From positions 67,734 through 131,733 of the forward strand of contig CAYRUS010000002.1 of the NCBI GenBank assembly GCA_964427735.1: 64,000 nucleotides of DNA, in the 5' to 3' direction. The notes under the pieces were generated by a model. That model did not search any database. It saw only the letters and a program-made list of their open reading frames with translations, and was not told where the DNA came from. The DNA comes from an uncultured Gammaproteobacteria bacterium (GTDB lineage Bacteria; Patescibacteriota; Microgenomatia; UBA8517). Positions 9,478 to 27,354 of the stretch are shown one piece after another (position 1 is the stretch's first letter; every line of letters starts with the position of its first letter). Position numbers and translations under genes: made by a program.

Positions 9478-10428
9478 TTACCTGTAAGAATCCAAATAAA
9501 CAATATCCAGTAGGCTTTCTTGATCTTTAAAATACTTCTGAAGTATATTTATTCCTTTATTTAATTTTTTATGAGCCCATTGATGGGAAAATCCCAGTGC
9601 CTCACCTATTTCCCTTAAGGAACTAATTTTATGATCATTCAGTCCAAAACGCATTTCAATAACTATTCTACAATCTGGATCTTCCTCTTCTAAAAGCACA
9701 ATAGCTTTTTTTAATTCATCAAATATAATTTTCCTGTCTGCTTCTTGTTGAGTAAAACTTCTTCCAGATACTATTTCTTCTAGGACTCTTCCATCACCAT
9801 CATTTTTAACAGGATCATTTAATGACATAACTACTCCCGTTCTATGTGCATTTTTATACCTTCTAATTGTTTCTGGTTTTAAACCTAATTCTTCTGCTAA
9901 TTCATAAACTTCTGGCATTCTTTTGTTTTTTTGAAGAAATTTATCTTCAGCATCTCTAACTAATCTAATATTGGCTAATACTCTTTCATTCAATCGAATT
10001 ATCCTAGATGAATTATTTACTGCTTTACTAATTTCTTGTCTAATCCAATAAAACACATAAGTACTAAACTCGTTATTAGTTGTGATTTCAAACTTTATAA
10101 CTCCTTTATACAGACCTACAGTACCTGCATTTATTAATTCTTCACGAGTCAGTGTACCTGTATATTTTTTTGCTATTGATACAATAAGCCCTTTGTTATT
10201 AGTAGCAATTTCTAAAAATGCTTTTCTTCCTGCTTCGTATTGCATTTCTAGCCTTTCATGCTCATTGCTGTCTAAATTTAATTTACGTTCATTTAGTATT
10301 TGCTGTGCTTTGTGTCCTTCTTGCACTAAAACCATTAATTCATATATTTTCTCCTTTGGGAGTAGTTCACTTTTGAGATGATGGCTACTCGGCAAAAATC
10401 TATCTCGGCTTTCTTTGCTCATTGTCAT
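9478..10428 (-). CDS. RNA polymerase sigma-70 family factor (regions 1.2/2/3/4)
   Basis: Region 2 IAKKYTGTLTREELINAGTVGLYKGVIKFEITTNNEFSTYVFYWIRQEI and region 4 HTH ISSLREIGEALGFSHQWAHKKLNKGINIL. Confidence 0.8.
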   Translation of the reverse strand: MTMSKESRDRFLPSSHHLKSELLPKEKIYELMVLVQEGHKAQQILNERKLNLDSNEHERLEMQYEAGRKAFLEIATNNKGLIVSIAKKYTGTLTREELINAGTVGLYKGVIKFEITTNNEFSTYVFYWIRQEISKAVNNSSRIIRLNERVLANIRLVRDAEDKFLQKNKRMPEVYELAEELGLKPETIRRYKNAHRTGVVMSLNDPVKNDGDGRVLEEIVSGRSFTQQEADRKIIFDELKKAIVLLEEEDPDCRIVIEMRFGLNDHKISSLREIGEALGFSHQWAHKKLNKGINILQKYFKDQESLLDIVYLDSYR

Positions 10429-10555
10429 AAGTCTATATTTAAATTAGATTAATTATGGGAAGATTATATATAAATCCTACTATTTCTTCCAATAAATGTC
10501 GTTTTAGTTTTTAATTAACCTCAAAGATTAGGATCTTTCTTTACGAATATAGTAT

Positions 10556-11848
10556 TTAGTTCAAATCTTGGATACTCACCATTTCTGACGAAAGTAATTT
10601 GTTTTTCTTATGGTATTCCTCCAGCAAGAGTTCGGTTTCCCCACTCCAAGTCTTATCAAAACCTACAGGCTCACCGTTTACAATATACAGATTAACAATT
10701 CCGTCGATTGGCAACACCACATTTGTCAGATGCCCATACTGATCTTCCCTTGCTGTATGGTTGAAACCAAAATCATCAGGTATATCTTGATCTGCAAATC
10801 CAGATACAACATTTATATATGAATCTAGTACCCTAAATTCTTTGTTTTCTGTGTCATATTCTGGTCTTACTAACGCAATTTGTGCAGAATCTCCTAAAAT
10901 AGAGAGTATCCACGCCTTTCTACTTATATCCAGTTTTTTGTCTCCTTTTGTCGAATTAAATATCTCAACTGTTTCTTGAATTGCATTAAGCAAATGAAAA
11001 TTTGCAGCAACAATAAGCGCTCTATTTTCCCTTTTCTTTTGAATTTTCTTAGGATCGTCACCAAGTACCTGTTCTATTATTTTTCTACCAGAATCATTAA
11101 TATCCGGCTTTAATATCAGCATTTGGTTGGTGTCTATAGACACCACTTCTATATCGTCAATTCTGGCAGGGCAACGTTTTCTAAACAAAAATTCGGGGAG
11201 GTTAGCGGCCTCTAGTTCTTCTTGTGTAGGCCAATCAAATTGAGCTTCTGATAAATTCACTTTTTTAAGCTGTGTCTGTTTATCTGCTATAACAGTTTTC
11301 TCGTCTCTTGTAGACAATTCGTAGACAGATATCTTTCCACTCGAAGAAACTTTTTCTTTCTCTCCTCTAGTGAGCGCTAGGATGCTTGAACCATATGTTG
11401 TGAATACCCTCCCATTTCTAGAAACTGTAATGTTTTGTTCATCACCTGCCTCTGGTGTGCTTATTGCTACATCTGCATTAATTTTTCCTGAATCAACTAG
11501 ATCTATAAATCTTTTCAATGCTGTCTCATTCAAAAACACACCAGTTACGTTATAACTATTAGCTTCACGGTGATATTGGATAACTGCACCCTTATCCTCA
11601 CCCATTATTGCATCTCCTATTTGTAGTGCTTTAAAAATATCTTCTTTCGAAAATCTATTATTAGAACTTGGCTTAAATTCAATAACAAAAGCTGGTGCTC
11701 TTCCAACACTTCTTACCATTTCTAAGTATCTTTTTCTTTCAGCTTCTAATATGTTGAATTGCTCTGCACTGCTATGATTAAGATCTTTACGAGAGGACTC
11801 CTGAGGTTTACTTTCATCAGGTGTGAATTTAGGATCAAAATCTTCCAT
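10556..11848 (-). CDS. Hypothetical protein (430 aa)
   Basis: ORF track. No motifs recognised. Confidence 0.4.
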   Translation of the reverse strand: MEDFDPKFTPDESKPQESSRKDLNHSSAEQFNILEAERKRYLEMVRSVGRAPAFVIEFKPSSNNRFSKEDIFKALQIGDAIMGEDKGAVIQYHREANSYNVTGVFLNETALKRFIDLVDSGKINADVAISTPEAGDEQNITVSRNGRVFTTYGSSILALTRGEKEKVSSSGKISVYELSTRDEKTVIADKQTQLKKVNLSEAQFDWPTQEELEAANLPEFLFRKRCPARIDDIEVVSIDTNQMLILKPDINDSGRKIIEQVLGDDPKKIQKKRENRALIVAANFHLLNAIQETVEIFNSTKGDKKLDISRKAWILSILGDSAQIALVRPEYDTENKEFRVLDSYINVVSGFADQDIPDDFGFNHTAREDQYGHLTNVVLPIDGIVNLYIVNGEPVGFDKTWSGETELLLEEYHKKNKLLSSEMVSIQDLN

Positions 11849-11972
11849 ACGCTGTTAATTCTATCTCAAGCACGACAATAAGACCAATATTATCTAAAAA
11901 GATGATCATATGATAAAAAGGTAGAAAATAAGATGAGTCCAGTTCAGATTTAATCTGATAAGGTTTTTAAGG

Positions 11973-11978
11973 TATAAT
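11973..11978 (+). promoter_or_regulatory. TATAAT -10 candidate upstream of tRNA-Trp.
   Basis: ggTATAATat 20 nt upstream of the tRNA start. No clear -35. Confidence 0.25.
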
Positions 11979-11998
11979 ATACATGTATTGAAAATTTT

Positions 11999-12074
11999 AG
12001 GGGTGTAGCTTAGTTGGTAGAGCGTCGGTCTCCAAAACCGAAGGTCGCAGGTTCGAATCCTGCCACCCCTGCCA
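11999..12074 (+). tRNA. tRNA-Trp (anticodon CCA), 3' CCA encoded
   Basis: Acceptor AGGGGTG/CACCCCT, anticodon stem TCGGT/ACCGA with loop CTCCAAA, T-arm GCAGG-TTCGAAT-CCTGC, discriminator G plus CCA. Confidence 0.85.
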
Positions 12075-12132
12075 GTTTTTATATTGTAATAACGGCCTTT
12101 TTTCTACCATCTCATTTATAATTTCTATTAAT

Positions 12133-13965
12133 TTAATTATTCCGAAGGATATTATTCACTTGAATGAGTGCAATCCTTAGGTCACTTAAAGCTTGAGTGT
12201 GTTTACCAGAACTTAGGTAGTAGTCATTATTGACGGAATAAATAAATTTTAGATAACACAAAAAGGATAAGGATTTTAAGGCCGATAATTTTAAAAAGAA
12301 TATGCTATCGAGTAAGGTAGGATTGTTTATTTCATTACGACCCGATGTTAAAATTTTCTCAGAAATCTTTAAAGCTTCTTTTTGAAGGCTATCAGGATCA
12401 AAAATTGCACCACCATACATCTTAATTTCTGCTTCCATATCAGCAGAGTGCTTTAGCAAACTTGCGGCTCTTTTAATTGCTGTTTCATAATTACTTATGC
12501 CAGTAAGCCCAAGTCCCTGTATAATATCTCCTCCCAGTTTGCCACCAAGGCTAAAAGTATTGTTTGCAAAGTCTTTAATCAAAGATTCATCTGGCATCGG
12601 TGTAAATGCTTTAACAGGACCTTTGAAATCTGGTCTTGAATATAGGTTATCGATAATACCTACATCTAATAAATTAGTAAGATATTCCTCCATTTGTACC
12701 ATTTCTTCATTAGTTGTGTCACCAAATCCTCTTAAATAGCGTGGATGAACTGAATCAGCGATATCAAAAATCCCTCTAAATTGAGTATACAGATATCTTG
12801 TTACTTTATTAATTCTTAGCTTCTCCATTGCCTGTCTTTCCCATTCTTTGAGATCTCTGTAGCTTGTATAATTTGTTGTGCTAATTTCTAATTTACTATA
12901 ATCCTCTTCTCTTCCAGGTCTATAGTTTCTTGGTTGATAATTATCGCTGGATGCAATCTTATCTAATCGCCTATTAATTTTCTGAACTTCATCTTCTGTT
13001 ACAGCAATCACCTTTGCTTTCTCTCTTTGATAAAGAAGCACCTTCCAGTCATCTTCTGTTAATAGTTTCTCACCATAATTAAGAAACCCCCATAAATTAG
13101 ATGCACTTTTATTTAGCCAAGGAACTAATTTCAACATATTAGGGTTCTTTTTTATCTCATTAAGTTTATATCCTTGAAGCTCAAGATGATGTGCTTCAAC
13201 TATAGCTTGTAACTCCCAGAGCTGCCTAAGTAAACTTGAAAATGATATTCCTTCAGCACTATTATCATAAGGAGTAACAATTTTATTCTTATTTTTATCT
13301 ACTACTTTTGAGATAAGCTGGATTGCCGGAGATGGGTTTTTCAACAACTCTTTTTCAATTCTATAAAGTAATTCATATAGACCTAAATGAGAAGTTGCTA
13401 GATCTTTTGAGCCTGGAAAATCTTCCCCAGATGGTTGAACAAACCAAATTGTAATTTCACCATTATCAACTAATTTTATTCCTGCTATAGAGGACTGTCT
13501 TTTTGGGTTAAAAACTACAAAATCAGCCTGATCTTTGTCTCCTACACTTTGTGGTAGTACAAGCTGATGCAAAAACCCAAAAGTCATACTGTCAGTATTT
13601 AAGCGTGAAGTATCGTGGTCATAAATACTTCTTGCAAAAAAGTTCAAATGTCTTTCACTAAAAGGACTAAATCTATGGTAAGTCTTAACATCGGAATTCC
13701 CTAGATACACTTGCCTTAAATAAAGGTTACCTGTCGATATCTTGTCTAATTCTAATACAGCCTCAGACCCTACTTCATTAATTCGCTTGTCAGCTTCTGC
13801 AATTGGAGTTTCAGTGGCATAAATGTGTTTATTTGGATCTGTTCTAAGGGTAATCGTTCCATAATCAATTATGATAGCACCAAATGGTTTTAAATCACGG
13901 TCTTTGACCTCAGAATCTGGTATTACTCTAAAATTTGTATGATGATTATTCTCTGACTCCAACAC
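12133..13965 (-). CDS. Hypothetical protein (610 aa)
   Basis: Long ORF. No motifs recognised. Confidence 0.45.
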   Translation of the reverse strand: MLESENNHHTNFRVIPDSEVKDRDLKPFGAIIIDYGTITLRTDPNKHIYATETPIAEADKRINEVGSEAVLELDKISTGNLYLRQVYLGNSDVKTYHRFSPFSERHLNFFARSIYDHDTSRLNTDSMTFGFLHQLVLPQSVGDKDQADFVVFNPKRQSSIAGIKLVDNGEITIWFVQPSGEDFPGSKDLATSHLGLYELLYRIEKELLKNPSPAIQLISKVVDKNKNKIVTPYDNSAEGISFSSLLRQLWELQAIVEAHHLELQGYKLNEIKKNPNMLKLVPWLNKSASNLWGFLNYGEKLLTEDDWKVLLYQREKAKVIAVTEDEVQKINRRLDKIASSDNYQPRNYRPGREEDYSKLEISTTNYTSYRDLKEWERQAMEKLRINKVTRYLYTQFRGIFDIADSVHPRYLRGFGDTTNEEMVQMEEYLTNLLDVGIIDNLYSRPDFKGPVKAFTPMPDESLIKDFANNTFSLGGKLGGDIIQGLGLTGISNYETAIKRAASLLKHSADMEAEIKMYGGAIFDPDSLQKEALKISEKILTSGRNEINNPTLLDSIFFLKLSALKSLSFLCYLKFIYSVNNDYYLSSGKHTQALSDLRIALIQVNNILRNN

Positions 13966-18884: not shown

Positions 18885-19709
18885 CTATTTGTTACTTGAA
18901 AGATCTCCTGAAACTACAAAATAATCAATTATCCATTGCTTTATCCTATGGTGTTTTGATTTAATCCCGCCTACTGTGTTCTCTAGTACATATGCAATCT
19001 CTTTATCTGGCAAACCTGCAAAATATTTTAAAAATATTAGAGTCTTCTCATCCTCCTCTAAAGAATTAATAGCACTAATTAGTGTATTAAGATATTTCTC
19101 TTTGTCTACACCTGAATCTTTACTACTAACTTTAAATAAGTTTTGGACACTAGGATCATCGATATCAACACTCATCAAATATCTGTCACTTCTTTCTTGA
19201 TCCCTATAATACCTAGAAATTTTGCTTTTAGCTATTTTGTACAACCACGCCCTTCTTAAAATATTTTCATCGTATCCTGGATTAGGAACAAAATTTCCAT
19301 ATGTATTATATGCAGACTCAAAAACCTGACTTGTAACATCTTCTGCATCTTGACTATTAGGAAGATGAAATCGAACATAATTAAGAATTCTCTGATGATA
19401 TTGATCAAATATTTCTTCAAACTCCCTTTCCTTTTCTCCTTGTAGTTCTGGATAAACTCTTCTTGTTTCAATTTTCTTTTTTACTGCGTAACCTACTCCT
19501 ACTGCTGCTAGTGTAAAAACAATTGCACCTGCTATTTTTTTTGGGGTTAATTTAAGATGATATTTTTCTAAGACTTTGGTGATTTTATTGTATTGTTCAT
19601 TATCTACACGCAGCTCAACTGGTGTAGAAATTCCATTCTCCTCAAAAAAGATATTTATGGTTACAAAATCTTCTTTTAAGTTATCTGTCTCTTTATAGGA
19701 TTCTTTCAT
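18885..19709 (-). CDS. ECF-type sigma-70 factor (regions 2 and 4) preceded by an ~80-aa N-terminal extension containing a TM helix
   Basis: Region 2 EFEEIFDQYHQRILNYVRFHLPNSQDAEDVTSQVFESAYN. Region 4 LEEDEKTLIFLKYFAGLPDKEIAYVLENTVGGIKSKHHRIKQWI. TM KKIAGAIVFTLAAVGVGYAVKKK. No internal ATG/GTG/TTG between the TM helix and the sigma domain. Confidence 0.6.
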   Translation of the reverse strand: MKESYKETDNLKEDFVTINIFFEENGISTPVELRVDNEQYNKITKVLEKYHLKLTPKKIAGAIVFTLAAVGVGYAVKKKIETRRVYPELQGEKEREFEEIFDQYHQRILNYVRFHLPNSQDAEDVTSQVFESAYNTYGNFVPNPGYDENILRRAWLYKIAKSKISRYYRDQERSDRYLMSVDIDDPSVQNLFKVSSKDSGVDKEKYLNTLISAINSLEEDEKTLIFLKYFAGLPDKEIAYVLENTVGGIKSKHHRIKQWIIDYFVVSGDLSSNK

Positions 19710-19826: not shown

Positions 19827-22800
19827 TTAATTGCTTTTAAGACCGGCTACAAACATATGCATTTTACCGCTAACCGCCTGACCGTTTGTTGTCCCCAAAA
19901 ATCCATTGGAACCGTCTTTTAAGACAGAGCCACAAGAAACGCCTTTAGCACAATGACCAATTTCTCCTCCGCCTTCGTGTCCAAAAATAACGGTATTGTT
20001 GTCCAAAACACTAGTAACTGCGTCTCGAACCTGTGAATATCTGGACTGATCTGGATGACCAGGGACATAAAATAAAACTTCCGGTGATCCACCTAACTCC
20101 GAAACAGTTTCTTGCACAATACGCTTGGATGCATTTACATCTCCTTCAGAGCCAAAAGTTTCACCAATACCTCTTGTCGCAATACTAAAGGATCCCTGTA
20201 CTAAAACTGCAGTTATTGTTCCGGAATTGAAATTTTTGTTGGTTAGGCTTCCGCCATTTATATATGCACCTGATCCAATAATTTTAATTGAATCGGGAAC
20301 TGGATCTCCAAAGGATTGCTTAAGTTCTGGCAAAATCCCTAAAAGGGTTAGTGAGTTGTCATCATAATGACCGGGACCAAATAAATGAATCAAATTTTTC
20401 TTGTTTTTATCTATATGCGGAACCAATAAATTAGCTAAATTCTTTCCTGCACCCAAATAATCCACTACATTATTTGAGTTTCTAATACTAGTACTTACAA
20501 CCTGAACATTTTCTATATTTGTACCTCCGAAAGCAAATATGGAAATTGATCGATTATCATGAGGAACAAATTGCTCTCTTGTAAGTGAATTATAATTTGT
20601 ACTGTTTGTTCCTGCACCTGCAAGCGGTATGCCTGATCCGAATGCGGCCTCAATCTTTTGTACTACTTCATTCCATGATCCGATATTATTATTTACTAAT
20701 ATAATTTTTGGAACTCCTTGCCCATAGGACGTTTTTGCTTCATTAATTGCTTCATCAATCATAGATGTTATTTTTTCGGACGACGGAAGTGTAGCTCCTG
20801 CACTTACAGCATGACCAGAAGACGCTTTTAATTTTGGATTGTCACTACTAGGTGACGAAGTTACTACTGGGGTCGGGTTAGGAGAATCAATAACGTAATT
20901 ATTTAACCAAATTACATAATCAATCCCATCGACTTTACCATTTCCATCAAAATCACCTTTAGATGAACCAGCTGTTGTGTTTGTATCATAATTGACAAGC
21001 CAAACTACATAATCCAAACCGTCCACTATTTCATCTCCATTTGCATCACCTGGAATAGATGGAGTTGATGAAGGCGCTTGAGTTGGAACAGGTGTAGCAT
21101 TTGGATCTGAAGGCTTGGCTTCAATAGCAGCTACAACGTTATCAATATAGTATAAATCACCAACAGGATATACAGGTGAGTCGAGGTACTTAACTAACTC
21201 TTCTCTAGATGCGTTTAAGATTTGTGCTTTTGCCTGAAATAAAGCATGAGTTTGTTGATACGCAGTCATGCCGCCTTCTCCTTGTTGTTCTCTATTTTGA
21301 CCAACAAACCACAAAGGAGCTATTGATTCGTATTTGTTTACAGCTTCTTGAACTTTTGGTAAAGCATTTGTTCTCAAGTGATTTGAAAGTTCAGGAGATA
21401 GTTCCATAAAATTGTACGCAGTGACAAGTGACCAAAAATATCTATCTCCGACACTATTCCCTGTATTTGGTCTTAAATCATAGGTAAATGTTTGAGCTCT
21501 TAAGTTAAGCAGTCTATTTAATTCTGCTTGATGTGCTGAATAAGAACTGCTCGGCTCGCCCGCTAATTTTGCAAGTTCTATGTACCCTTTGTAACCGGTT
21601 ATATAAGCATTGAATGCATGCGGGAAGGACTGTAGATCTGCGTCCGACATTGGAGTTGTTGATTTTAATTTGCTTTTTGCTGCAGCAAATATTTGCTTCG
21701 GATCACCTAATCCCGCCTCTGCATATTTCCACATAGCATAAAAATTTTGAGGTGGAATGACGTACCCTTTGAATGAAGAGTTAGTCGAAGGTCCAAGATT
21801 TTTAATCTTTTCGTACGTCAAAGGTAGAAAATCAAAACCTTCCCTGAATTTTCCATCTTTCCATCCAATATGTGAATATGTGTATGGTGGGAATTGATTG
21901 AACTCGCTTTGAATATAACTTTTTAACTGAGATTGCAGATTCGATGGCAGATAAGGTAACGCTTTGAGCAAAATATAAATCGTGTCACCGGGATTATGCC
22001 AATAATCTAATAAATTATCTCCCAACCAATTTCTTTGCGGGGAATCCAGGCTTCCTGAAATTCCATAGCCGGGTTTTAGATGGCCAGTAGCAATCATTTT
22101 TTGTACTTCCTCAGCAAGAATTGACTTTAGGGTGGACTCAGGAATTATATTTGATGAGGTAACAGGGTTTTTTATTGAACTTGATGATAAAACAGGTGCA
22201 TTAGACCCCGCACCTCCAACTCCAAAAGCTACAAGTGCATTTGACCTAATAACATACATTTTGCCTTTATAAATTGCCGGTCCAACATTGTCACCGTGTT
22301 CATAGTACCAGACTCCGTGCTGTCCGTTAGAAAAATCCCATATGAATTTATAATGTTCTTTTTCATATCCTGAAGGCATTGATGGCGCAGGAGGATTTCC
22401 AACACCATGGACAAACCTCCATTGTCTTGTATTGTCTAAACTGGGGAAAGTTGTATTTGGTTTTGAAATATCCACAGCACCAATAAACCTGTCACAGCAA
22501 AGGTTCCAGTAAACATATCTACCTGCTCCTGAAATTCCTGCTGGTTCATCAGCAGGAAAATGACCGCTTTGCTGAGACATTCTTGAAAAAGGCAAACTAA
22601 TATGAGGCGTACCAACCTTCCAGCCGACCGGAACCGTTGATGCAAAGGTGCTTGTATTTACCATAATCATATTCCTGAAATATGGAACTTGGTCAAATCC
22701 ACTAACAACAGGAGGATAAATTGTTCCATGATCCTGAGTTGCACGAGCTATAGGTGCTGCATCTGGTCTTCCGTCATTGTCCAGATCATAATTTTCCTCA

Positions 22801-23798
22801 CTACCACTGGCTTGGTTTAACACAAAAACAGTTCTAGTATCTCTATTTTCTTCATAATAGTCTAATATACTCTTACCCAGAGGGTTGTTTCGCAAATCTG
22901 CTGTAATTGTTCCATTCACCCAATCACCAGATTCTGTTCCCAACGTTCCTGCAACATATCCTGAACGGTCAGGATTTGTAAAAAGCCATTCATTTTCTAA
23001 ATAAATATTACTATCACCAGAAAAATCAGTACTTGTATTCCTCTCATATTCGGTTTTTGTGAAGATTACTTTGTCCTTATAAACCACCGGCCACCATGAA
23101 TACCAACCCATTGTTGGTAATTTTGTTTTCCAGGCAAGAGATCCGTTCGTATTTAAAGCATAAGCATGACCATCATTAGAACCAAAATATATTTTGCCGT
23201 TAGCGTACGCGGCAGAATGAAGAATCTGTCCCCCGGTTTTGTATTTCCACGCGAGGCTGCCGTTAGTATTTAGTGCATACATATGCTTATCGCGGCTGCC
23301 GATAAAAATTTTGTTTTCTGCAAATAATGGGCTTGTTTCGAATCCCCCATCTGCTGCAAATTCCCAAATTTTGTTCCCATTGCTCGCATTTACTGCATAC
23401 ACCTTTCTATCAAGACCACCAACATACAGCACTCCATTTGCATATGTCGGTGAATGACCCAATGGTAATTCTGTAGGAAACACCCACTTTTCGCTTCCAT
23501 TTTCTGCGTCATAAGCATAAAGTCCTCGTGAAGTTGATACATAAACTTTACCTTCGGCTCCAACCACTTGTACTTTTTGCGGAATGTATGGAACAATTGG
23601 TCTCACCCATAGCTCGTCTAAATTTCCTGCTGAAGGTTCTTCTGATATCCAGCTTGTCCTTTGTGGATTAGCACCTGCTGTTGACCAAGGAGTGTCTTGA
23701 GATTGTGCAGAAACAGAAACTTGGTATTTAATATATATTCCATAAATTAATCCAGACAATACAAAAACAGAAATTATCAGTAAAATTAATTTTCTCAT
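19827..23798 (-). CDS. Very large secreted protein (1323 aa) with an N-terminal PQQ-type beta-propeller, a central domain of unknown fold, an internal type-I dockerin and a C-terminal possible metallophosphatase-like domain
   Basis: Signal peptide. PQQ repeats (GKVYVSTSRGLYAYDAENGSEKW, VLYVGGLDRKVYAVNASNGNKIW, KIFIGSRDKHMYALNTNGSLAW, KIYFGSNDGHAYALNTNGSLAW). Dockerin GDANGDEIVDGLDYVVWLVNYD...GDFDGNGKVDGIDYVIWLNNY. C-terminal VIFGHEGGGEIGH. Confidence 0.55.
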   Translation of the reverse strand: MRKLILLIISVFVLSGLIYGIYIKYQVSVSAQSQDTPWSTAGANPQRTSWISEEPSAGNLDELWVRPIVPYIPQKVQVVGAEGKVYVSTSRGLYAYDAENGSEKWVFPTELPLGHSPTYANGVLYVGGLDRKVYAVNASNGNKIWEFAADGGFETSPLFAENKIFIGSRDKHMYALNTNGSLAWKYKTGGQILHSAAYANGKIYFGSNDGHAYALNTNGSLAWKTKLPTMGWYSWWPVVYKDKVIFTKTEYERNTSTDFSGDSNIYLENEWLFTNPDRSGYVAGTLGTESGDWVNGTITADLRNNPLGKSILDYYEENRDTRTVFVLNQASGSEENYDLDNDGRPDAAPIARATQDHGTIYPPVVSGFDQVPYFRNMIMVNTSTFASTVPVGWKVGTPHISLPFSRMSQQSGHFPADEPAGISGAGRYVYWNLCCDRFIGAVDISKPNTTFPSLDNTRQWRFVHGVGNPPAPSMPSGYEKEHYKFIWDFSNGQHGVWYYEHGDNVGPAIYKGKMYVIRSNALVAFGVGGAGSNAPVLSSSSIKNPVTSSNIIPESTLKSILAEEVQKMIATGHLKPGYGISGSLDSPQRNWLGDNLLDYWHNPGDTIYILLKALPYLPSNLQSQLKSYIQSEFNQFPPYTYSHIGWKDGKFREGFDFLPLTYEKIKNLGPSTNSSFKGYVIPPQNFYAMWKYAEAGLGDPKQIFAAAKSKLKSTTPMSDADLQSFPHAFNAYITGYKGYIELAKLAGEPSSSYSAHQAELNRLLNLRAQTFTYDLRPNTGNSVGDRYFWSLVTAYNFMELSPELSNHLRTNALPKVQEAVNKYESIAPLWFVGQNREQQGEGGMTAYQQTHALFQAKAQILNASREELVKYLDSPVYPVGDLYYIDNVVAAIEAKPSDPNATPVPTQAPSSTPSIPGDANGDEIVDGLDYVVWLVNYDTNTTAGSSKGDFDGNGKVDGIDYVIWLNNYVIDSPNPTPVVTSSPSSDNPKLKASSGHAVSAGATLPSSEKITSMIDEAINEAKTSYGQGVPKIILVNNNIGSWNEVVQKIEAAFGSGIPLAGAGTNSTNYNSLTREQFVPHDNRSISIFAFGGTNIENVQVVSTSIRNSNNVVDYLGAGKNLANLLVPHIDKNKKNLIHLFGPGHYDDNSLTLLGILPELKQSFGDPVPDSIKIIGSGAYINGGSLTNKNFNSGTITAVLVQGSFSIATRGIGETFGSEGDVNASKRIVQETVSELGGSPEVLFYVPGHPDQSRYSQVRDAVTSVLDNNTVIFGHEGGGEIGHCAKGVSCGSVLKDGSNGFLGTTNGQAVSGKMHMFVAGLKSN

Positions 23799-26581
23799 TA
23801 TATAGAGTAGTTATTTAACCATATCACATAGTCTATTCCATCAACGTGTCCATTATTATTGAAGTCTCCTTTTGAAGCCCCATTTTGAGTATCAGTATCG
23901 TAATTAATTAACCATATCACATAGTCCAAACCATCTACAATTCCGTCTGCATTTGCATCTCCAGGAACAGATGGGATTGATGTCGGAGTAACTACATCAT
24001 AATCTCCAATTCTGAATGCAGTATCAGTAGATAAGTTATTTACAAACACTGCTATTTGACCATTACTATCGCTAGTAATATTTTTTGTTGAAGAAATTGT
24101 GCCTGAATTTGTGTCCCATTCCTCTATTTTATAAGTTGAGTTAGGGGAAAAACCAGAAATTTTTACCTCTGAAGATTGAGGATTTATATTCACTCCATCT
24201 ACTACGTTTTTCCAAGTATGGTCAATATTTTGCACCCAAATATGTGCTTTCTGATTTATCATATCTTTTTGCCCCCACACTCTTATATTTGCATTAGAAG
24301 AGATTGCTTCTGCATCTACATAATTACCGTTGTTTAGTGGTATGTCCTTTATAAAACGATAATAATTTCCGAATTTTGGTCTGTGATCATGAGATAATAT
24401 CTCGTTTTTACCTTTTTTGTATATTTGATTCGTAAAACTTCCTCCTGCAAAAAAATGTTCAATCAATCCATTAGGGTTAATACCTCCCCAAATAAAATTA
24501 TGCAGCCATACACCACTATCTTGATTAGAGGCAAAAGGATCGGATCCGGAGAATTGCCAGGCAACTTCACCACGAATAATTGGTTTTCCAGCACCGGTAT
24601 TAAGCTTAGCTCCACGCAAATCACTTAATGTCTTTGTAAACAAAGCAGAATCAAAATATCCTTCTTCTCCCTCGTCTGCATATTCATGGATATCAGCATA
24701 ATCAATATTTGGGTAATTCCCTGATGTATTCCTCCAAAAATGGTAAGGATATCCTCCACTAAAAAACGACGTTGTGACTAAGTGATCATTTGGATGATCA
24801 TAATCGCACGCATTACTTGAATTAATCTCAAATACTCCACAGTGCATAAATTTTCCAAATTCATCAGCTAGAATCCAGTGAGGTCCATCTGTTGGTCCAG
24901 GAGGTCCTTCATTTAAAAGTTCCCATGAATGCACATTTTCTGAATATCCCCATCTTCCCTGCATGTATCTCCACCATGCCTTTTGCAACCAACGAACCTT
25001 TGTTTCTCCTGCCAACTCTCTACCGTTTCCATAAAAATAATTACTATCTTTTACATAAGCGAGTGTTCCGTCGCTTTTTATAGTTGTAAATATATAGTCA
25101 TTTTTTTCTAGCATTACCATTTTTAGATAAACATCATGTTCTCCCGCTAATTCCAAAACTTTATCTAAGGCATATGCATCGCGCTGACTTACATAAGTAT
25201 GGTGATCCAAATCAGGCTTGTAAATAATATTTGGTCCATAATTCCCTCCACCTAAATCTTCCTCCATCCAAATATTTTCAACAAATACATGTCCGCTTGA
25301 TTGATTCTGAGGAGAATTTGATAGATTCTCTAAACTCAAATAAAGAAATTGGATAAAATCTTTGTCACCACTATTATAATACCCTTCCAGAATTCTCCAT
25401 CCAGGATTTTCAGGGTCGGAATAATCGGTCCATGGATCGTTAGAAGTTCTTTGATACGTAGCAGCTAAAACAGTACCCATCCCTGGATAGTCGCATCTTT
25501 TTGTCTCATCTGTATCATGCCAAAGCCATCCACCTTCCTTCACAGTAAAACCATAGGGTTGCCCTGATACTTTTGGTCCTACAAATCCTTGTGCATTGTA
25601 ACGAACTCTAATTCTATAATTTGTGTTTCTTTTGACAGTAACTGGCGCATTATTAAAACCTAATAATCTACATGGTGTAAATTTATACATCTGTCCATCT
25701 CCCGCAACAGTAGTATCGTAATTAAGCCACATAAAATAATCAGAACCGAAAATATCAGGGGGTGACGTTAAATTTGCATATGCCGTAAGCTGAGCATCGT
25801 TTCTTTGGATCAATCCCATTATTGCTTCATTTTTTATATGGGCACGATTTGGGGAAAACCAAGCACCGTATGCAGATCCATAAATTGATTTTTGTGAAAT
25901 CCAAACTCTCGATAATTGAATACCATTTTCCCCCATCGCAGAGAATTCCTCGACATTACCCAATAATGGATTTATAAAATCAAGATTTCCTGCATTAAGA
26001 TTAAAACCTAATGCAGGAAAGTAAGTTCCATCTTCGTGCTCAAAATACCTTACATCCTGTGAGCTTACTTTGACTGGACCATGATGCGAGGATTCAACCA
26101 CATTAAAATTTACTTCAGAAGTTTGTACTGTTCCTTCATCATCCTCGGCATAAAGTTGGTATTTCCAACTACCTGTTTTGTTAGGTGAAAATCTTACTTT
26201 CCATTTATAAATTGCGGTTGGATAAAGCCAATCATTATTATTTTTTACCTCTCTCTCAAATTCTTGATAATAAAAAGCGGGCTGAATATGAGTTTTACCA
26301 TCTGGATCTGTGAATTTAGCATTTACTGTTATACCCTGACCTGATTCCAATCCTAAAGGAGGATCTGGATCATATGGGAAAAACATGTTAGTTGCAACAG
26401 AATTTTCTATATCAAAAGTAATTTCTATTTTCTCAAATTTTGGTACTGATGAATTTGTGTAATCAGTCTTGTTATCTGTTATATTTTGTATTTCAAGCTG
26501 ACCAGTTTGAGCTTTTGTCTGTTTTGTAATAAACAAGACTGGAAAGACTAACACTATAGCAACAAGAACAAATTTTTTCAT
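23798..26581 (-). CDS. Secreted putative glycoside hydrolase (GH-A clan TIM-barrel, GH5-like) with an N-terminal Ig-like domain and a C-terminal type-I dockerin
   Basis: Signal peptide. VHSWELLNEGP matches the NEP acid/base strand of clan GH-A. C-terminal GDANADGIVDGLDYVIWLINYD...GDFNNNGHVDGIDYVIWLNNY dockerin. Confidence 0.5.
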   Translation of the reverse strand: MKKFVLVAIVLVFPVLFITKQTKAQTGQLEIQNITDNKTDYTNSSVPKFEKIEITFDIENSVATNMFFPYDPDPPLGLESGQGITVNAKFTDPDGKTHIQPAFYYQEFEREVKNNNDWLYPTAIYKWKVRFSPNKTGSWKYQLYAEDDEGTVQTSEVNFNVVESSHHGPVKVSSQDVRYFEHEDGTYFPALGFNLNAGNLDFINPLLGNVEEFSAMGENGIQLSRVWISQKSIYGSAYGAWFSPNRAHIKNEAIMGLIQRNDAQLTAYANLTSPPDIFGSDYFMWLNYDTTVAGDGQMYKFTPCRLLGFNNAPVTVKRNTNYRIRVRYNAQGFVGPKVSGQPYGFTVKEGGWLWHDTDETKRCDYPGMGTVLAATYQRTSNDPWTDYSDPENPGWRILEGYYNSGDKDFIQFLYLSLENLSNSPQNQSSGHVFVENIWMEEDLGGGNYGPNIIYKPDLDHHTYVSQRDAYALDKVLELAGEHDVYLKMVMLEKNDYIFTTIKSDGTLAYVKDSNYFYGNGRELAGETKVRWLQKAWWRYMQGRWGYSENVHSWELLNEGPPGPTDGPHWILADEFGKFMHCGVFEINSSNACDYDHPNDHLVTTSFFSGGYPYHFWRNTSGNYPNIDYADIHEYADEGEEGYFDSALFTKTLSDLRGAKLNTGAGKPIIRGEVAWQFSGSDPFASNQDSGVWLHNFIWGGINPNGLIEHFFAGGSFTNQIYKKGKNEILSHDHRPKFGNYYRFIKDIPLNNGNYVDAEAISSNANIRVWGQKDMINQKAHIWVQNIDHTWKNVVDGVNINPQSSEVKISGFSPNSTYKIEEWDTNSGTISSTKNITSDSNGQIAVFVNNLSTDTAFRIGDYDVVTPTSIPSVPGDANADGIVDGLDYVIWLINYDTDTQNGASKGDFNNNGHVDGIDYVIWLNNYSI

Positions 26582-26694: not shown

Positions 26695-27354
26695 ATGCTA
26701 AAAAAGCCTGCCATAGCATTAAGTGTTTTTTTAATACTCTTGTTTTTAGTTGCAAGCCCGGCTAAAGCTAGCCTTTTTGACTTTTCAGATTCTTCTTTTG
26801 TGACTTCAATAATTAATTCAATCAAAAGCAGGCTTACAAATATCTCTATAGACTCCATTAATAAAGAAAACTTTTCAACCACACCACCTAAGATTTTATC
26901 GGAAGCTAGTCCTCCAATCGCTACTCCATCGCAATCATCTTCCCCTGCTCCAGGTCCAAAACCAACTACTACTCCTACAATTAATCCTTCGACTAACCCA
27001 GCAACCAGTGCAAAAACATATATCATGCTTGCAATTAACAATTACAGACTCTCTCGAGGATTGAGCGAAGTGCAAATAGACCCTTATACTTGTGCTCTTG
27101 CTAAAACAAGAGCCCAAGAGATCTCACGTGAGTTTAACCATGATGGGTTCAAAAATAGGATTAATAATAATTTGCTTCCTTACCCAACTTATTCTGAGGT
27201 GACAGAAAACATTGCCTCTACTTCTGATTTCAAAAGAGTAGTTGATTTGTGGATTAATTCACCAGGGCATGCAGAAAATATGAGAAAAAATACTCCTTAT
27301 GTCTGTGTTGAAAACTATGGAATGTATTACGTATACGAAGGATGGAGACCATAG
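26695..27354 (+). CDS. Secreted CAP/SCP/PR-1-like domain protein with a Pro/Thr/Ser-rich linker
   Basis: Signal peptide. YIMLAINNYRLSRGLSEV...HDGF...INSPGHAENM pattern of CAP domains. Confidence 0.6.
   Translation: MLKKPAIALSVFLILLFLVASPAKASLFDFSDSSFVTSIINSIKSRLTNISIDSINKENFSTTPPKILSEASPPIATPSQSSSPAPGPKPTTTPTINPSTNPATSAKTYIMLAINNYRLSRGLSEVQIDPYTCALAKTRAQEISREFNHDGFKNRINNNLLPYPTYSEVTENIASTSDFKRVVDLWINSPGHAENMRKNTPYVCVENYGMYYVYEGWRP

What the first reader, a model, noticed from the sequence alone, without database searches (positions are those of the whole stretch)
19827..26581. Two giant dockerin-tagged secreted proteins, a PQQ beta-propeller protein with an internal dockerin and a GH-A-like hydrolase
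19827..23798 (1323 aa) has an N-terminal PQQ-repeat beta-propeller, a large unknown central domain and a type-I dockerin embedded about 400 aa from the C-terminus. A possible metallophosphatase-like domain (IFGHEGGGEIGH) follows. Internal dockerins are unusual. 23798..26581 (927 aa) carries a WELLNEG strand diagnostic of clan GH-A glycosidases plus a C-terminal dockerin. The two dockerins are ~80% identical to each other (…GDANxDxIVDGLDYViWLiNYD…GDFxxNGxVDGIDYVIWLNNY). They differ from those of the 1–7.5 kb paralogs, suggesting two dockerin specificity classes. These would be the 'cargo' for the cohesin proteins at 1–7.5 kb. The stop of one gene overlaps the start of the other at 23798.
Basis: partly seen in the sequence, partly recalled or inferred. 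Interest (0 to 1): 0.6.

Follow-up and report, generated by a model that had tools for sequence, protein, structure and literature searches.

The report
Dockerin-tagged glycanase pair in a CPR bacterium
Two overlapping genes encode secreted, dockerin-tagged proteins: a distant GH5-type sugar-chain-cutting enzyme and an uncharacterised propeller-plus-helical-barrel protein. In other microbes the two are repeatedly neighbours or fused into one protein, so they most likely work together on the cell surface of a tiny, probably CPR, bacterium.

Summary
Both ORFs are real, lie on the minus strand, overlap by one base (TAATG) and start with signal peptides.

Protein A (927 aa) is a clan GH-A (beta/alpha)8 glycosidase. 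Its family profile matches ManDH5, a Dictyoglomus GH5 beta-mannanase, end to end (E 3e-44; Foldseek E 5e-35). Glu558 aligns with ManDH5's mutated Glu303, and Glu672 is the predicted nucleophile. A also carries a family-specific ~235-aa beta-rich insertion in the barrel.

Protein B (1323 aa) has four parts:
- a PQQ/BamB-like propeller;
- a confident all-alpha domain that only weakly resembles (alpha/alpha)6 toroids;
- a dockerin;
- a rare FIST-like tail, not a metallophosphatase.

The dockerins are divergent. They score below Pfam's cut-off, but the family profile hits solved dockerins almost exclusively. They are 76% identical to each other.

New findings:
- A and B families are adjacent in at least 12 other contigs across phyla.
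- They are naturally fused in two proteins, B-A and B-A-B.
- B's dockerin is internal only because the FIST-like module, a separate dockerin-bearing gene in an Amesbacteria operon, became fused to it.

The 1-7.5 kb genes carry cohesin-like modules with borderline support and a second dockerin class.

Verdict: a new variant of a known kind, of moderate interest. Substrate and B's activity are unknown.

The parts
23798..26581 (-). Gene A, 927 aa: a secreted GH5-like (clan GH-A) glycosidase with a C-terminal dockerin. It is the upstream gene of the pair.
   Evidence: ORF. Family of at least 147 homologues. Profile vs ManDH5 E 3e-44. AF2 model pLDDT 93. Foldseek E 5e-35.
26510..26581 (-). A signal peptide, residues 1-24 (MKKFVLVAIVLVFPVLFITKQTKA | QT).
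   Evidence: Read from the sequence. Low pLDDT N-terminal helix in the model. The cleavage site is inferred.
26087..26500 (-). A N-terminal Ig-like beta-sandwich (DUF5060), residues ~28-165.
   Evidence: Pfam DUF5060 25.8 bits against a cut-off of 27.2. Aligned to ManDH5 residues 45-159. All-beta in the model.
25886..26074 (-). A barrel part 1 (beta1-alpha1-beta2), residues ~170-232, with invariant Arg225.
25187..25885 (-). A family-specific beta-rich insertion (~233-465) in the beta2-alpha2 loop of the barrel. It is absent from ManDH5.
   Evidence: Gap in the alignments to ManDH5. About 10 strands in the model. Conserved in 124 fetched homologues. No Pfam hit.
24347..25186 (-). A barrel part 2 (alpha2 to beta8), residues 466-745. 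It contains WELLNEG (553-559; acid/base Glu558 at 24908..24910), His632-x-Tyr634, and Arg-Gly-Glu672 (nucleophile, 24566..24568).
   Evidence: Invariant columns. Glu558 aligns with ManDH5 Glu303, which is mutated to Gln in the substrate complexes. Strand positions. Coordinates.
24002..24346 (-). A C-terminal beta-sandwich, residues 746-860.
   Evidence: Aligned to ManDH5 residues ~450-561. Strands in the model.
23801..23971 (-). A dockerin, residues 871-927, with two DxNxDxxVDGxDY Ca-loop/helix repeats.
   Evidence: Pfam Dockerin_1 18.4 bits, below the cut-off of 22.9. Family profile hits solved dockerins. Local HMM 96.5 bits.
19827..23798 (-). Gene B, 1323 aa: secreted propeller + all-alpha domain + dockerin + FIST-like tail. 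It overlaps gene A by 1 nt (TAATG).
23706..23798 (-). B signal peptide or signal anchor, residues 1-31 (...SVSA | QS).
   Evidence: Read from the sequence; inferred.
22155..23687 (-). B beta-propeller, residues ~38-548. Canonical PQQ/BamB-like blades lie at ~75-230. The degenerate half carries a DxDxDG loop (338-343) and near-invariant vicinal Cys434-Cys435.
   Evidence: PQQ_2 81 bits. PDB hits cover the blades only. Conservation. This part was not modelled.
21099..22133 (-). B central all-alpha domain, residues 556-900. It is (alpha/alpha)-toroid-like, with many invariant polar and aromatic residues (R652, Y687, W690, N730, R767, N796, W830, E841, D873, D881).
   Evidence: AF2 pLDDT > 90 with ~14 helices. 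Weak Foldseek hits to GH81, C4Adg, PL8, GH76 and GH125. No Pfam or PDB sequence hit. Conservation.
20889..21056 (-). B dockerin, residues 915-970, flanked by Pro/Thr/Ser linkers.
   Evidence: Pfam 20.3 bits, below the cut-off. Profile. 76% identical to A's dockerin. Local HMM 94.1 bits.
19830..20801 (-). B FIST-like C-terminal domain, residues ~1000-1323.
   Evidence: Rare family, 30 clusters among 1.84e9 representatives. FIST_N passes Pfam in P0249, P0251 and P0255 and is near the cut-off in P0191. Foldseek FBXO22 E 0.011. The model is only moderately confident and poor after residue ~1210.
3038..3988 (-). Candidate anchoring partner: 316-aa protein with a signal peptide, one cohesin-like module and a C-terminal TM helix.
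   Evidence: tblastn and jackhmmer from the near-threshold cohesin L003_190. Sequence. Profile vs PDB cohesins E 0.012. Binding is inferred.
3975..7535 (-). Two paralogous candidate adaptor proteins (557 and 573 aa). Each has an N-terminal TM helix, two cohesin-like modules and a second-class dockerin.
   Evidence: The homologue L002_569 scores Cohesin 23.7 and Dockerin 24.9 bits.

Best explanation
The locus is a translationally coupled two-gene operon from a low-GC bacterium. The organism is probably CPR/Microgenomates-type; that is inferred from the nearest named homologues. Both products are secreted, dockerin-tagged components of a cell-surface glycan-degrading assembly.

Protein A is a retaining beta-glycanase of clan GH-A and a distant relative of GH5. 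Its layout is: Ig-like DUF5060 domain, (beta/alpha)8 barrel, C-terminal beta-sandwich, dockerin. Glu558 is the acid/base on strand 4 and Glu672 the nucleophile on strand 7. A ~235-aa beta-rich domain is inserted on the catalytic face of the barrel and probably shapes the substrate cleft.

Protein B is an uncharacterised but widespread 'propeller + alpha-toroid' core. It most likely binds or cleaves the same polysaccharide as A. The evidence is that the two families recur as neighbours in several phyla and are fused in natural B-A and B-A-B proteins.

In this lineage B has additionally captured a FIST-like module. That module is a separate dockerin-bearing gene of the same operon in an Amesbacteria MAG. 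The capture left B's dockerin internal.

Both dockerins belong to one sequence class. They presumably plug into the cohesin-like modules of the membrane-anchored proteins at 1-7.5 kb, which carry a second dockerin class. This would be a minimal two-tier cellulosome-like scaffold.

Shown: domain architecture, catalytic residues, family linkage and fusions, and the dockerin identity of the modules.

Inferred: substrate, B's activity, the role of the FIST-like tail, actual cohesin-dockerin pairing, and taxonomy.
For: Protein A:
- Profile vs ManDH5 is full length at E 3e-44, with WEFWNE/WELLNE and GEFG/RGE aligned.
- Invariant residues are R225, N557-E558, H632, Y634 and E672.
- The AF2 model has pLDDT 93 and pTM 0.88, with E558 just after strand 550-557 and E672 inside strand 668-673.
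- Foldseek's top hits are ManDH5 (GH5 mannanase, E303Q-mannotetraose complexes) at 5e-35. They are followed by BVU_0362 and by GH140, GH5 and GH30 barrels.

A-B linkage:
- Adjacent in L001, L002 and L003 in three different arrangements.
- Adjacent in 9 of 79 reference loci spanning Amesbacteria, Gottesmanbacteria, WWE3, Paceibacterota, Micrarchaeota, Anaerolineae, Bryobacterales and Pseudomonadales.
- Fused in P0185 (B-A, 1713 aa) and in the L018 3262-aa ORF (B-A-B).
- 1-nt TAATG overlap in the window.

Dockerins.

FIST-like tail and its fusion origin:
- Most B homologues end at the dockerin.
- Tail family and FIST support.
- The L007 operon is B, 456-aa protein, 407-aa protein, FIST-like protein, A, all with the same dockerin class.

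Cohesin context:
- Pfam-level cohesin genes lie next to the pair in L001 and L003.
- Seven cohesin-like modules lie in the window.

B central domain: confident all-alpha fold with weak (alpha/alpha)6 GH and PL neighbours. Other B-family members carry Polysacc_lyase or CHB_HEX_C/Fn3_assoc domains.
Against: - No Pfam GH family and no CAZy/dbCAN assignment could be obtained for A. Structure-based identity to ManDH5 is only ~16%, so the substrate cannot be transferred.
- Both window dockerins and all window cohesin-like modules are below Pfam gathering scores. The best cohesin profile hit in the PDB is only E 0.012.
- Bona fide cohesins from L001 and L003 do not retrieve the window modules.
- The cohesin-like genes are ~12 kb away from the pair.
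- A-B adjacency is a minority state for B loci (9 of 79). It was absent in 3 of 6 A loci examined, all of them non-CPR.
- B's central domain has no significant structural neighbour, and its propeller was not modelled. Nothing shows that B is catalytic.
- The FIST-like tail model is weak (pLDDT < 50 for the last ~110 aa).
- Taxonomy is inferred only from the nearest named homologues (48-49% identity).
Confidence: 0.62

Rival explanations
1. The dockerin-like modules do not assemble a cohesin scaffold. They would be non-cellulosomal double EF-hand modules serving another role, such as Ca-dependent stabilisation, attachment to the cell envelope, or attachment to a host cell. A and B would then act as free or directly wall-bound exoenzymes.
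For: The window dockerins are below Pfam's threshold. No window ORF passes Pfam Cohesin, and the cohesin profile hit is marginal. The putative partners are 12 kb away. Dockerin-like modules outside cellulosomes are widespread; this last point is from established knowledge and was not tested here.
Against: In L001 and L003 the same gene pair sits next to genes that pass Pfam Cohesin at 34-61 bits. The window encodes 7 cohesin-like modules and two distinct dockerin classes, arranged as in adaptor and anchor scaffoldins. All five genes of the L007 operon carry the same dockerin class, which is typical of cargo for a common receptor.
Confidence: 0.25
2. B is a PQQ-dependent quinoprotein dehydrogenase, for example a sugar or alcohol oxidoreductase. 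It would oxidise products released by A rather than being a glycan-binding or glycan-cleaving partner.
For: PQQ-family Pfam hits. PDB hits include PQQ alcohol and methanol dehydrogenases at E 1e-16 to 1e-8. There is a near-invariant vicinal Cys-Cys (res 434-435), which recalls the vicinal disulfide of methanol dehydrogenases (from memory).
Against: The matches cover only ~4 generic blades (profile positions 75-260). Scores against curated PQQ-enzyme models are far below their cut-offs (TIGR03075 46.9 vs 480; TIGR03074 14.3 vs 833). BamB and designed propellers score higher than the dehydrogenases. No PQQ-binding residues were demonstrated. The additional alpha-toroid domain and the fusions to a GH are not features of quinoproteins.
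Confidence: 0.07
3. B is non-catalytic. It would be a large substrate-targeting, adhesion or sensor component: the propeller and toroid as lectin-like binders and the FIST-like tail as a small-ligand sensor. Its job would be to position the A glycanase on its polysaccharide or on a host cell.
For: There is no detectable homology to any enzyme family. BamB-like propellers are typically scaffolds. FIST domains are regarded as ligand-binding or sensor modules (established knowledge). The thioester-domain proteins C3d and C4Adg are as good structural neighbours as the GHs.
Against: The central domain has many invariant acidic, polar and aromatic residues (E841, D873, D881, R652, R767, W690, W830), which looks like an active site or sugar-binding site. 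The family is conserved at 40-50% identity across phyla, including free-living Chloroflexota and Planctomycetota, and often occurs without A. That suggests an autonomous function.
Confidence: 0.3

Closest known systems
ManDH5, the GH5 beta-D-mannanase of Dictyoglomus thermophilum (PDB 9GMJ, 9GPA, 9GPC-G, 9HHJ, 9HIM; deposited as 'DUF5060 domain-containing protein')
   Same: Same three-part layout: DUF5060 Ig-like domain, (beta/alpha)8 barrel and C-terminal beta-sandwich. The N-E acid/base motif (E303 = A E558), the G-E nucleophile motif and the H-x-Y motif are all aligned. Profile E 3e-44; Foldseek E 5e-35 with TM 0.77 normalised to the target.
   Different: Only ~16% identity. A's family has a ~235-aa beta-rich domain inserted after barrel strand 2, plus a Pro/Thr linker and a dockerin. 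The length is 927 vs 568 aa. The substrate is unknown, and mannanase activity cannot be assumed.
Cellulosomal dockerin-bearing enzymes and cohesin scaffoldins of Clostridia and Ruminococcus (type I dockerin, Pfam PF00404; cohesin, PF00963)
   Same: Duplicated 22-residue Ca-loop/helix dockerin after a Pro/Thr linker. The profile hits solved dockerins (2Y3N, 4FL4, 1DAQ, 8X39). Several enzymes share one dockerin class. Nearby genes have cohesin-like modules, membrane anchors and a second dockerin class, an adaptor/anchor logic. Internal dockerins also occur in classical systems (PMC11445354).
   Different: The dockerin consensus is divergent (DYVIWLNNY helices) and below Pfam's threshold in the window. 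The cohesin-like modules are borderline. Anchoring is by TM helices rather than SLH domains or sortase. The cargo is a propeller-toroid protein, a FIST-like module and a GH5-like enzyme with an insertion. The host is probably a small-genome CPR bacterium.
BamB / PQQ-like beta-propeller repeat proteins (Pfam PQQ_2, PF13360) and PQQ-dependent alcohol dehydrogenases
   Same: About four canonical 'AxDxxtGxxxW' blades at residues 75-230.
   Different: It fails the curated BamB and PQQ-enzyme models by large margins. The rest of the propeller is degenerate and carries large inserts. It is fused to an all-alpha domain and is secreted with a dockerin.
FIST domain proteins (Pfam FIST_N, PF08495; for example human FBXO22, PDB 8S7E)
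   Same: Relatives of B's tail pass FIST_N (24.6-25.5 vs 23.2 bits). There is a weak Foldseek match to FBXO22 (E 0.011, probability 0.99). A conserved C-terminal GxExG motif is present.
   Different: The window sequence itself has no Pfam hit. The family is very rare (30 clusters). It is extracellular and combined with dockerin, PKD or CHB_HEX_C modules, rather than with cytoplasmic signalling domains.
Two-domain propeller + (alpha/alpha)6 glycosidases such as BT1020 (GH143-GH142) of the Bacteroides RG-II locus. Recalled from memory; a lead only.
   Same: The domain order, an N-terminal beta-propeller followed by an alpha/alpha toroid, in a secreted glycan-processing context.
   Different: No sequence or Foldseek match to GH142 or GH143 was seen among the top hits. 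Blade number and active sites were not tested.

Membership tests
Clan GH-A / GH5-like glycoside hydrolase (protein A) | (beta/alpha)8 TIM-barrel catalytic domain | tested here: met
   AF2 model pLDDT 93 with alternating strand/helix elements. Foldseek hits to GH5 (ManDH5, 4QFU, 3KZS), GH140 and GH30 barrels at probability 1.00.
Clan GH-A / GH5-like glycoside hydrolase (protein A) | Acid/base Glu in an Asn-Glu motif at the end of strand 4, and a nucleophile Glu at the end of strand 7 | tested here: met
   N557-E558 follows strand 550-557, and E672 lies in strand 668-673. Both are invariant in 58 sequences. E558 aligns with ManDH5 E303, the residue mutated in the substrate complexes.
Clan GH-A / GH5-like glycoside hydrolase (protein A) | Match to a curated GH family model (Pfam Cellulase PF00150, or a dbCAN/CAZy GH5 HMM) | tested here: not met
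   The window protein has no Pfam GH hit at E <= 1; only DUF5060 (25.8 vs 27.2 bits) and Dockerin_1 appear. One relative (P0086) carries a precomputed PF00150 hit. dbCAN is not available, so the CAZy family and subfamily are not testable here.
Clan GH-A / GH5-like glycoside hydrolase (protein A) | Glycosidase activity with retention of configuration | not testable with these tools
   Requires enzymology.
Type I dockerin (Pfam PF00404) | Two tandem ~22-residue segments, each a Ca-binding loop (D-x-[ND]-x-[DN]-x3-D-x2-D) followed by a helix | tested here: met
   A: DANADGIVDGLD...DFNNNGHVDGID. B: DANGDEIVDGLD...DFDGNGKVDGID. Helices are predicted at A 884-892 and 915-923.
Type I dockerin (Pfam PF00404) | Score at or above the Pfam gathering threshold (22.9 bits) | tested here: not met
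   A scores 18.4 and B 20.3 bits. Relatives at the same position pass: P0190 30.9, P0255 32.5, L003 467-aa protein 32.9 bits. The family profile hits solved dockerins at E 8e-6 to 1e-3.
Type I dockerin (Pfam PF00404) | Ca-dependent binding to a cognate cohesin | not testable with these tools
   Candidate cohesin-like partners lie at 3..7562. Binding is inferred.
Cohesin (Pfam PF00963), for the 1-7.5 kb proteins | Recognisable cohesin module | tested here: inconclusive
   No window ORF hits PF00963 at E <= 5. Homologues score L003_190 22.5 and L002_569 23.7 against a cut-off of 24.1 bits. The module profile's top PDB hits are R. flavefaciens cohesins at E 0.012-0.017. Bona fide cohesins from L001 and L003 do not retrieve the modules.
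PQQ-dependent dehydrogenase (protein B) | Full-length match to curated quinoprotein models | tested here: not met
   TIGR03075 46.9 bits vs cut-off 480, and TIGR03074 14.3 vs 833. PDB matches are limited to blades at positions 75-260.
BamB (protein B) | Equivalog-level match to BamB models | tested here: not met
   TIGR03300 81.6 bits vs cut-off 285, and NF008351 48.8 vs 423. The 'BamB' names in JGI annotations are generic.
FIST domain (B tail) | Match to the Pfam FIST_N or FIST_C models | tested here: inconclusive
   The window tail has no hit. Relatives P0249, P0251 and P0255 pass FIST_N (25.5, 24.6 and 24.6 vs 23.2 bits), and P0191 scores 21.7. No FIST_C hit appears in any member. Foldseek matches FBXO22 at E 0.011.
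   There is no such Pfam hit at E <= 5. No metallophosphatase appears among the Foldseek hits or the profile-PDB hits.
(alpha/alpha)6-barrel glycosidase or lyase (B central domain) | Significant structural or sequence match to a known (alpha/alpha)6 CAZyme family | tested here: inconclusive

The most novel reading that the evidence does not exclude
The B core (propeller + alpha-toroid) would be a new, widespread carbohydrate-active enzyme family, either a hydrolase or a lyase. It would act obligately with the insertion-bearing GH5-like family A, and with an extracellular FIST-like module, on one specific polysaccharide. In episymbiotic CPR bacteria, and in a DPANN archaeon, this three-part module would be displayed on a minimal, membrane-anchored, two-tier cohesin-dockerin scaffold. 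Its target would be host or biofilm glycans rather than plant biomass.
Probability: 0.2. Interest if true: 0.7.

Novelty: new variant of a known kind. Interest (0 to 1): 0.45.

Why it matters
If the reading is right, this locus provides three things.

1. It is a concrete, testable example of a cellulosome-like surface assembly in an ultra-small, probably CPR, bacterium, with only a handful of parts. There are two dockerin classes, about seven cohesin-like modules and TM-helix anchors.
2. It offers guilt-by-association handles for two large uncharacterised protein families: adjacency in several phyla, two natural fusions and a shared operon. The propeller-toroid family has at least 285 relatives in reference genomes and at least 883 in metagenomes. 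It is usually mis-named 'BamB' or 'PQQ-like'.
3. It places a FIST-like domain, normally discussed as a cytoplasmic sensor, in a new extracellular context.

It could guide the discovery of a new CAZyme family and of the glycan on which these organisms feed.

The GH5-like call for protein A and the presence of dockerins are in themselves ordinary.

Tried and rejected
- The metallophosphatase reading of IFGHEGGGEIGH is rejected. There is no Pfam or fold support, and the motif is the conserved GxExG of a FIST-like family.
- BamB and quinoprotein membership for B are rejected on curated cut-offs.
- The word-indexed homologue search with B's tail returned nothing, not even the parent protein. That looks like a tool quirk and wasted the search. 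The exhaustive HMMER search then worked.
- Literature searches for DUF5060, ManDH5 and the PDB codes found no describing paper. A's closest relative is therefore known here only from PDB titles.
- Searches for CPR plus cohesin/dockerin, and for FIST plus dockerin, found nothing that describes such a system. 'PQQ' hits in PMC11445354 were accession prefixes.
- The source record of the window could not be retrieved, and the window's genome is not among the GTDB representatives searched.
- The promoter and terminator scan was uninformative: 29 promoter-like sites against 33.6 expected, and no terminator-like site between A and B or directly after B.
- Bona fide cohesins from L001 and L003 used as jackhmmer seeds did not retrieve the window modules.
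- B's propeller (residues 1-555) was not modelled, because only two structure jobs were allowed.


Full report
**1. Observation**

The two ORFs exist as described, both on the minus strand: A = 26581..23798 (927 aa) and B = 23798..19827 (1323 aa). A is upstream. Its TAA stop and B's ATG share one base (TAATG), so the genes are very likely co-transcribed and translationally coupled. No terminator-like site lies between them. Both products begin with a basic-hydrophobic N-terminus followed by an AxA-like site (A...TKA|QT; B...SVSA|QS). The window has 32-40% GC. The nearest named homologues are from Candidatus Gottesmanbacteria and Amesbacteria at 48-49% identity. A CPR/Microgenomates-type origin is therefore inferred, not shown. 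The source record could not be retrieved.

**2. Protein A**

Pfam gives only a near-threshold DUF5060 (25.8 vs 27.2 bits) and a sub-threshold Dockerin_1 (18.4 vs 22.9), with no GH family. A nevertheless belongs to a well-populated family of 850-950-aa proteins, with at least 147 hits and the top ones at E = 0.

- A 58-sequence profile matches the 568-aa 'DUF5060 domain-containing protein' 9GMJ/9GPC over its whole length (E 3e-44). WEFWNE aligns with WELLNE and GEFG with RGE.
- The AF2 model is confident (pLDDT 93, pTM 0.88).
- Foldseek identifies the 9G** entries as ManDH5, a GH5 beta-D-mannanase of Dictyoglomus thermophilum. The set includes E303Q mutants with bound mannotetraose (E 5e-35, TM 0.77 on the target).
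- The next hits are a Bacteroides putative GH (4N0R) and GH66, GH140, GH5 and GH30 barrels.

A's Glu558 aligns with ManDH5 Glu303. R225, N557, E558, H632, Y634 and E672 are invariant in the family. They sit at the ends of barrel strands 2, 4, 6 and 7 in the model. This is the clan GH-A '4/7' arrangement.

Formal CAZy assignment could not be tested.

It is absent from ManDH5 and conserved in all 124 fetched relatives. It has no Pfam hit. At ~16% identity and with this insertion, the mannanase specificity cannot be transferred.

**3. Protein B**

PQQ_2 (81 bits) covers residues 93-229. All PDB sequence matches, including those from a 51-sequence profile, are confined to the generic blades at positions ~75-260: designed propellers, BamB and PQQ dehydrogenases. 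Curated BamB and quinoprotein models are missed by large margins. B is therefore neither BamB nor a demonstrable quinoprotein.

The rest of the propeller region, to about residue 548, is degenerate. It carries a DxDxDG loop and a near-invariant vicinal Cys-Cys. It was not modelled.

Residues 556-900 fold confidently (pLDDT > 90) into an all-alpha domain of about 14 helices. Foldseek finds no neighbour at E < 1e-3. The weak hits are (alpha/alpha)6 toroids: GH81, PL8, GH76, GH125 and the thioester domains of C3, C4 and C5, with TM up to 0.48 on the target. The domain has many invariant acidic, basic and aromatic residues.

**4. Dockerins**

Both modules have the canonical duplicated Ca-loop/helix pattern. 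They are 76% identical to each other. As single sequences they fall below Pfam's threshold. However, a profile of 27 orthologous modules retrieves solved dockerins almost exclusively (8X39, 2Y3N, 4FL4, 1DAQ and others; E 8e-6 to 1e-2). Orthologous modules in relatives pass Pfam. I accept them as divergent dockerins.

In nearly all homologues the dockerin is C-terminal, and in two it is N-terminal. Most B homologues are 890-1000 aa and end at the dockerin.

**5. B's tail and why the dockerin is internal**

Residues ~1000-1323 belong to a very rare family: 30 clusters among 1.84 billion representatives.

- Members are stand-alone 360-450-aa proteins, or modules in PKD-, CHB_HEX_C- or dockerin-containing and giant proteins.
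- Three members pass Pfam FIST_N and one is just below threshold.
- The model weakly matches the FIST protein FBXO22.
- Many stand-alone members carry their own dockerin.
- P0246, the closest at 47% identity, has the same dockerin-then-FIST-like order.
- In an Amesbacteria MAG the operon reads B(dockerin), 456-aa protein(dockerin), 407-aa protein(dockerin), FIST-like(dockerin), A(dockerin).

B's architecture is thus a fusion of a normal B-dockerin protein with a neighbouring FIST-like component. The metallophosphatase suggestion has no support. Internal dockerins also occur in classical cellulosomal enzymes, for example GH11-CBM6-DocI-GH10 (PMC11445354).

**6. A and B are functionally linked**

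The A and B hit lists share many contig lengths.

- Direct inspection shows adjacency in three further contigs, in three arrangements: B then A, A then B, and divergent.
- A scan of one genome per species with the B profile found 285 relatives. They come from CPR lineages, Planctomycetota, Verrucomicrobiota, Acidobacteriota, Chloroflexota, Gammaproteobacteria MAGs and a Micrarchaeota archaeon.
- An A-family gene lies within 7 kb in 9 of the 79 loci kept, and these loci span very different phyla.
- Two natural fusions exist: P0185 (1713 aa, B core then A) and a 3262-aa Gottesmanbacteria ORF with B-A-B and a single C-terminal dockerin.

The link is not obligatory. Three non-CPR A loci lack B. 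One of them sits in an exopolysaccharide gene cluster with Wzz, GT4, a sulfotransferase and a sulfatase.

**7. Scaffold context**

Next to the pair in L001 and L003 are genes that pass Pfam Cohesin (34-61 bits), together with dockerin-bearing small proteins. In the window, the minus-strand ORFs 3..1196 (partial), 3038..3988, 3975..5648 and 5814..7535 together contain seven copies of a 115-150-aa module. That module is related to the near-threshold cohesin of L003.

- The 316-aa protein has a signal peptide, one module and a C-terminal TM helix.
- The 557- and 573-aa paralogues have an N-terminal TM helix, two modules and a dockerin of a second class. That class is 79% identical between the two and 32-36% identical to the A/B class.
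- No window ORF passes Pfam Cohesin.
- The module profile's best PDB hits are Ruminococcus cohesins, at only E 0.012.

The 'cargo for cohesins' idea is therefore plausible but rests on borderline homology. Pairing is untested.

**8. Mechanism proposed**

The proposal is a small surface-displayed glycan-degrading assembly. A is a retaining GH-A beta-glycanase whose inserted beta-domain shapes its cleft. B is a co-acting binding or catalytic partner for the same polymer. The FIST-like module is an accessory ligand-binding unit. All three would be tethered through class-1 dockerins to cohesin-like modules on TM-anchored proteins.

Confidence is about 0.6 for the overall picture. It is high for the domain assignments and for the A-B linkage. 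It is moderate for scaffold assembly. It is low for any specific substrate.

The rivals, listed separately, are non-cohesin roles for the dockerins, B as a quinoprotein, and B as a purely non-catalytic adaptor.

**9. Novelty and score**

A is a distant, insertion-bearing relative of a solved GH5 enzyme, and dockerin-tagged enzymes are a known kind. What is new:

- the recurrent A-B(-FIST-like) association, with natural fusions;
- the uncharacterised, widespread propeller-toroid family as dockerin cargo;
- an extracellular FIST-like dockerin module;
- the compact TM-anchored, two-class cohesin/dockerin set in a probable CPR genome.

I found no paper describing this in the searchable library.

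Rating: new variant of a known kind. Interest: 0.45.

Noticed in passing
window 18885..19709 (-): A sigma-70 family gene (region 2 41.7 bits, region 4_2 28.9 bits) lies 117 nt downstream of B on the same strand. It has a ~95-aa N-terminal extension containing a hydrophobic helix (IAGAIVFTLAAVGVGYAV, residues ~60-77) before region 2. This may be a membrane-tethered sigma factor that regulates the locus.
   Followed up: no
window 3975..5648 and 5814..7535 (-); also 3..1196 (-): The two cohesin-like/dockerin paralogues share an identical ~330-aa N-terminal half. Identical shadow ORFs lie at 5060..5335 and 6866..7141. This is either a very recent tandem duplication or an assembly artefact. A third paralogue runs off the window start.
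   Followed up: partly
window 22485..22511 and 22767..22793 (-), B residues 430-438 and 336-344: There is a near-invariant vicinal Cys-Cys (YWNLCCDR) and a DxDxDG Ca-loop-like motif in the degenerate half of B's propeller. A vicinal disulfide is a hallmark of PQQ methanol dehydrogenases (from memory). Its significance here is untested.
   Followed up: no
window 25986..26020 (-): A 14-bp perfect inverted repeat, flagged as terminator-like, lies inside the coding region of A at the FPALGFNLNAGN segment, which is barrel strand 1.
   Followed up: no
L007 7184..16906 (Candidatus Amesbacteria GW2011_GWC1_47_15): Five consecutive genes all end in the same dockerin class: B, a 456-aa protein with a TIM-like 'LEANEYW' motif, a 407-aa protein, a FIST-like protein and A. 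This would be a compact dockerin-cargo operon.
   Followed up: partly
L018 1004..10792 (Candidatus Gottesmanbacteria RIFCSPHIGHO2_01_FULL_40_15); P0185: A single 3262-aa ORF encodes B-A-B plus one C-terminal dockerin. P0185 (1713 aa) encodes B-A without a dockerin. Both are natural fusions of the two families.
   Followed up: yes
L023 (Candidatus Micrarchaeota archaeon RBG_16_49_10), 7034..13154: The B and A families are adjacent in a DPANN archaeal MAG at 44% and 53% identity to the window proteins. This suggests inter-domain transfer, or mis-binning, of the pair.
   Followed up: no
L006 (Acidobacteriota contig), 1..11822: An A-family gene without B sits within an exopolysaccharide-type cluster containing Wzz, GT4, a sulfotransferase, a sulfatase and ATP-sulfurylase/APS kinase. 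This hints that some family members act on (sulfated) microbial EPS rather than plant glycans.
   Followed up: no
window 26695..27354 (+) and 1972..3009 (-): A secreted CAP/SCP-domain protein is transcribed divergently from A. A PGA_cap (capsule synthesis / CapA-like) protein follows the cohesin-like genes. Both are further cell-surface functions in the neighbourhood.
   Followed up: no
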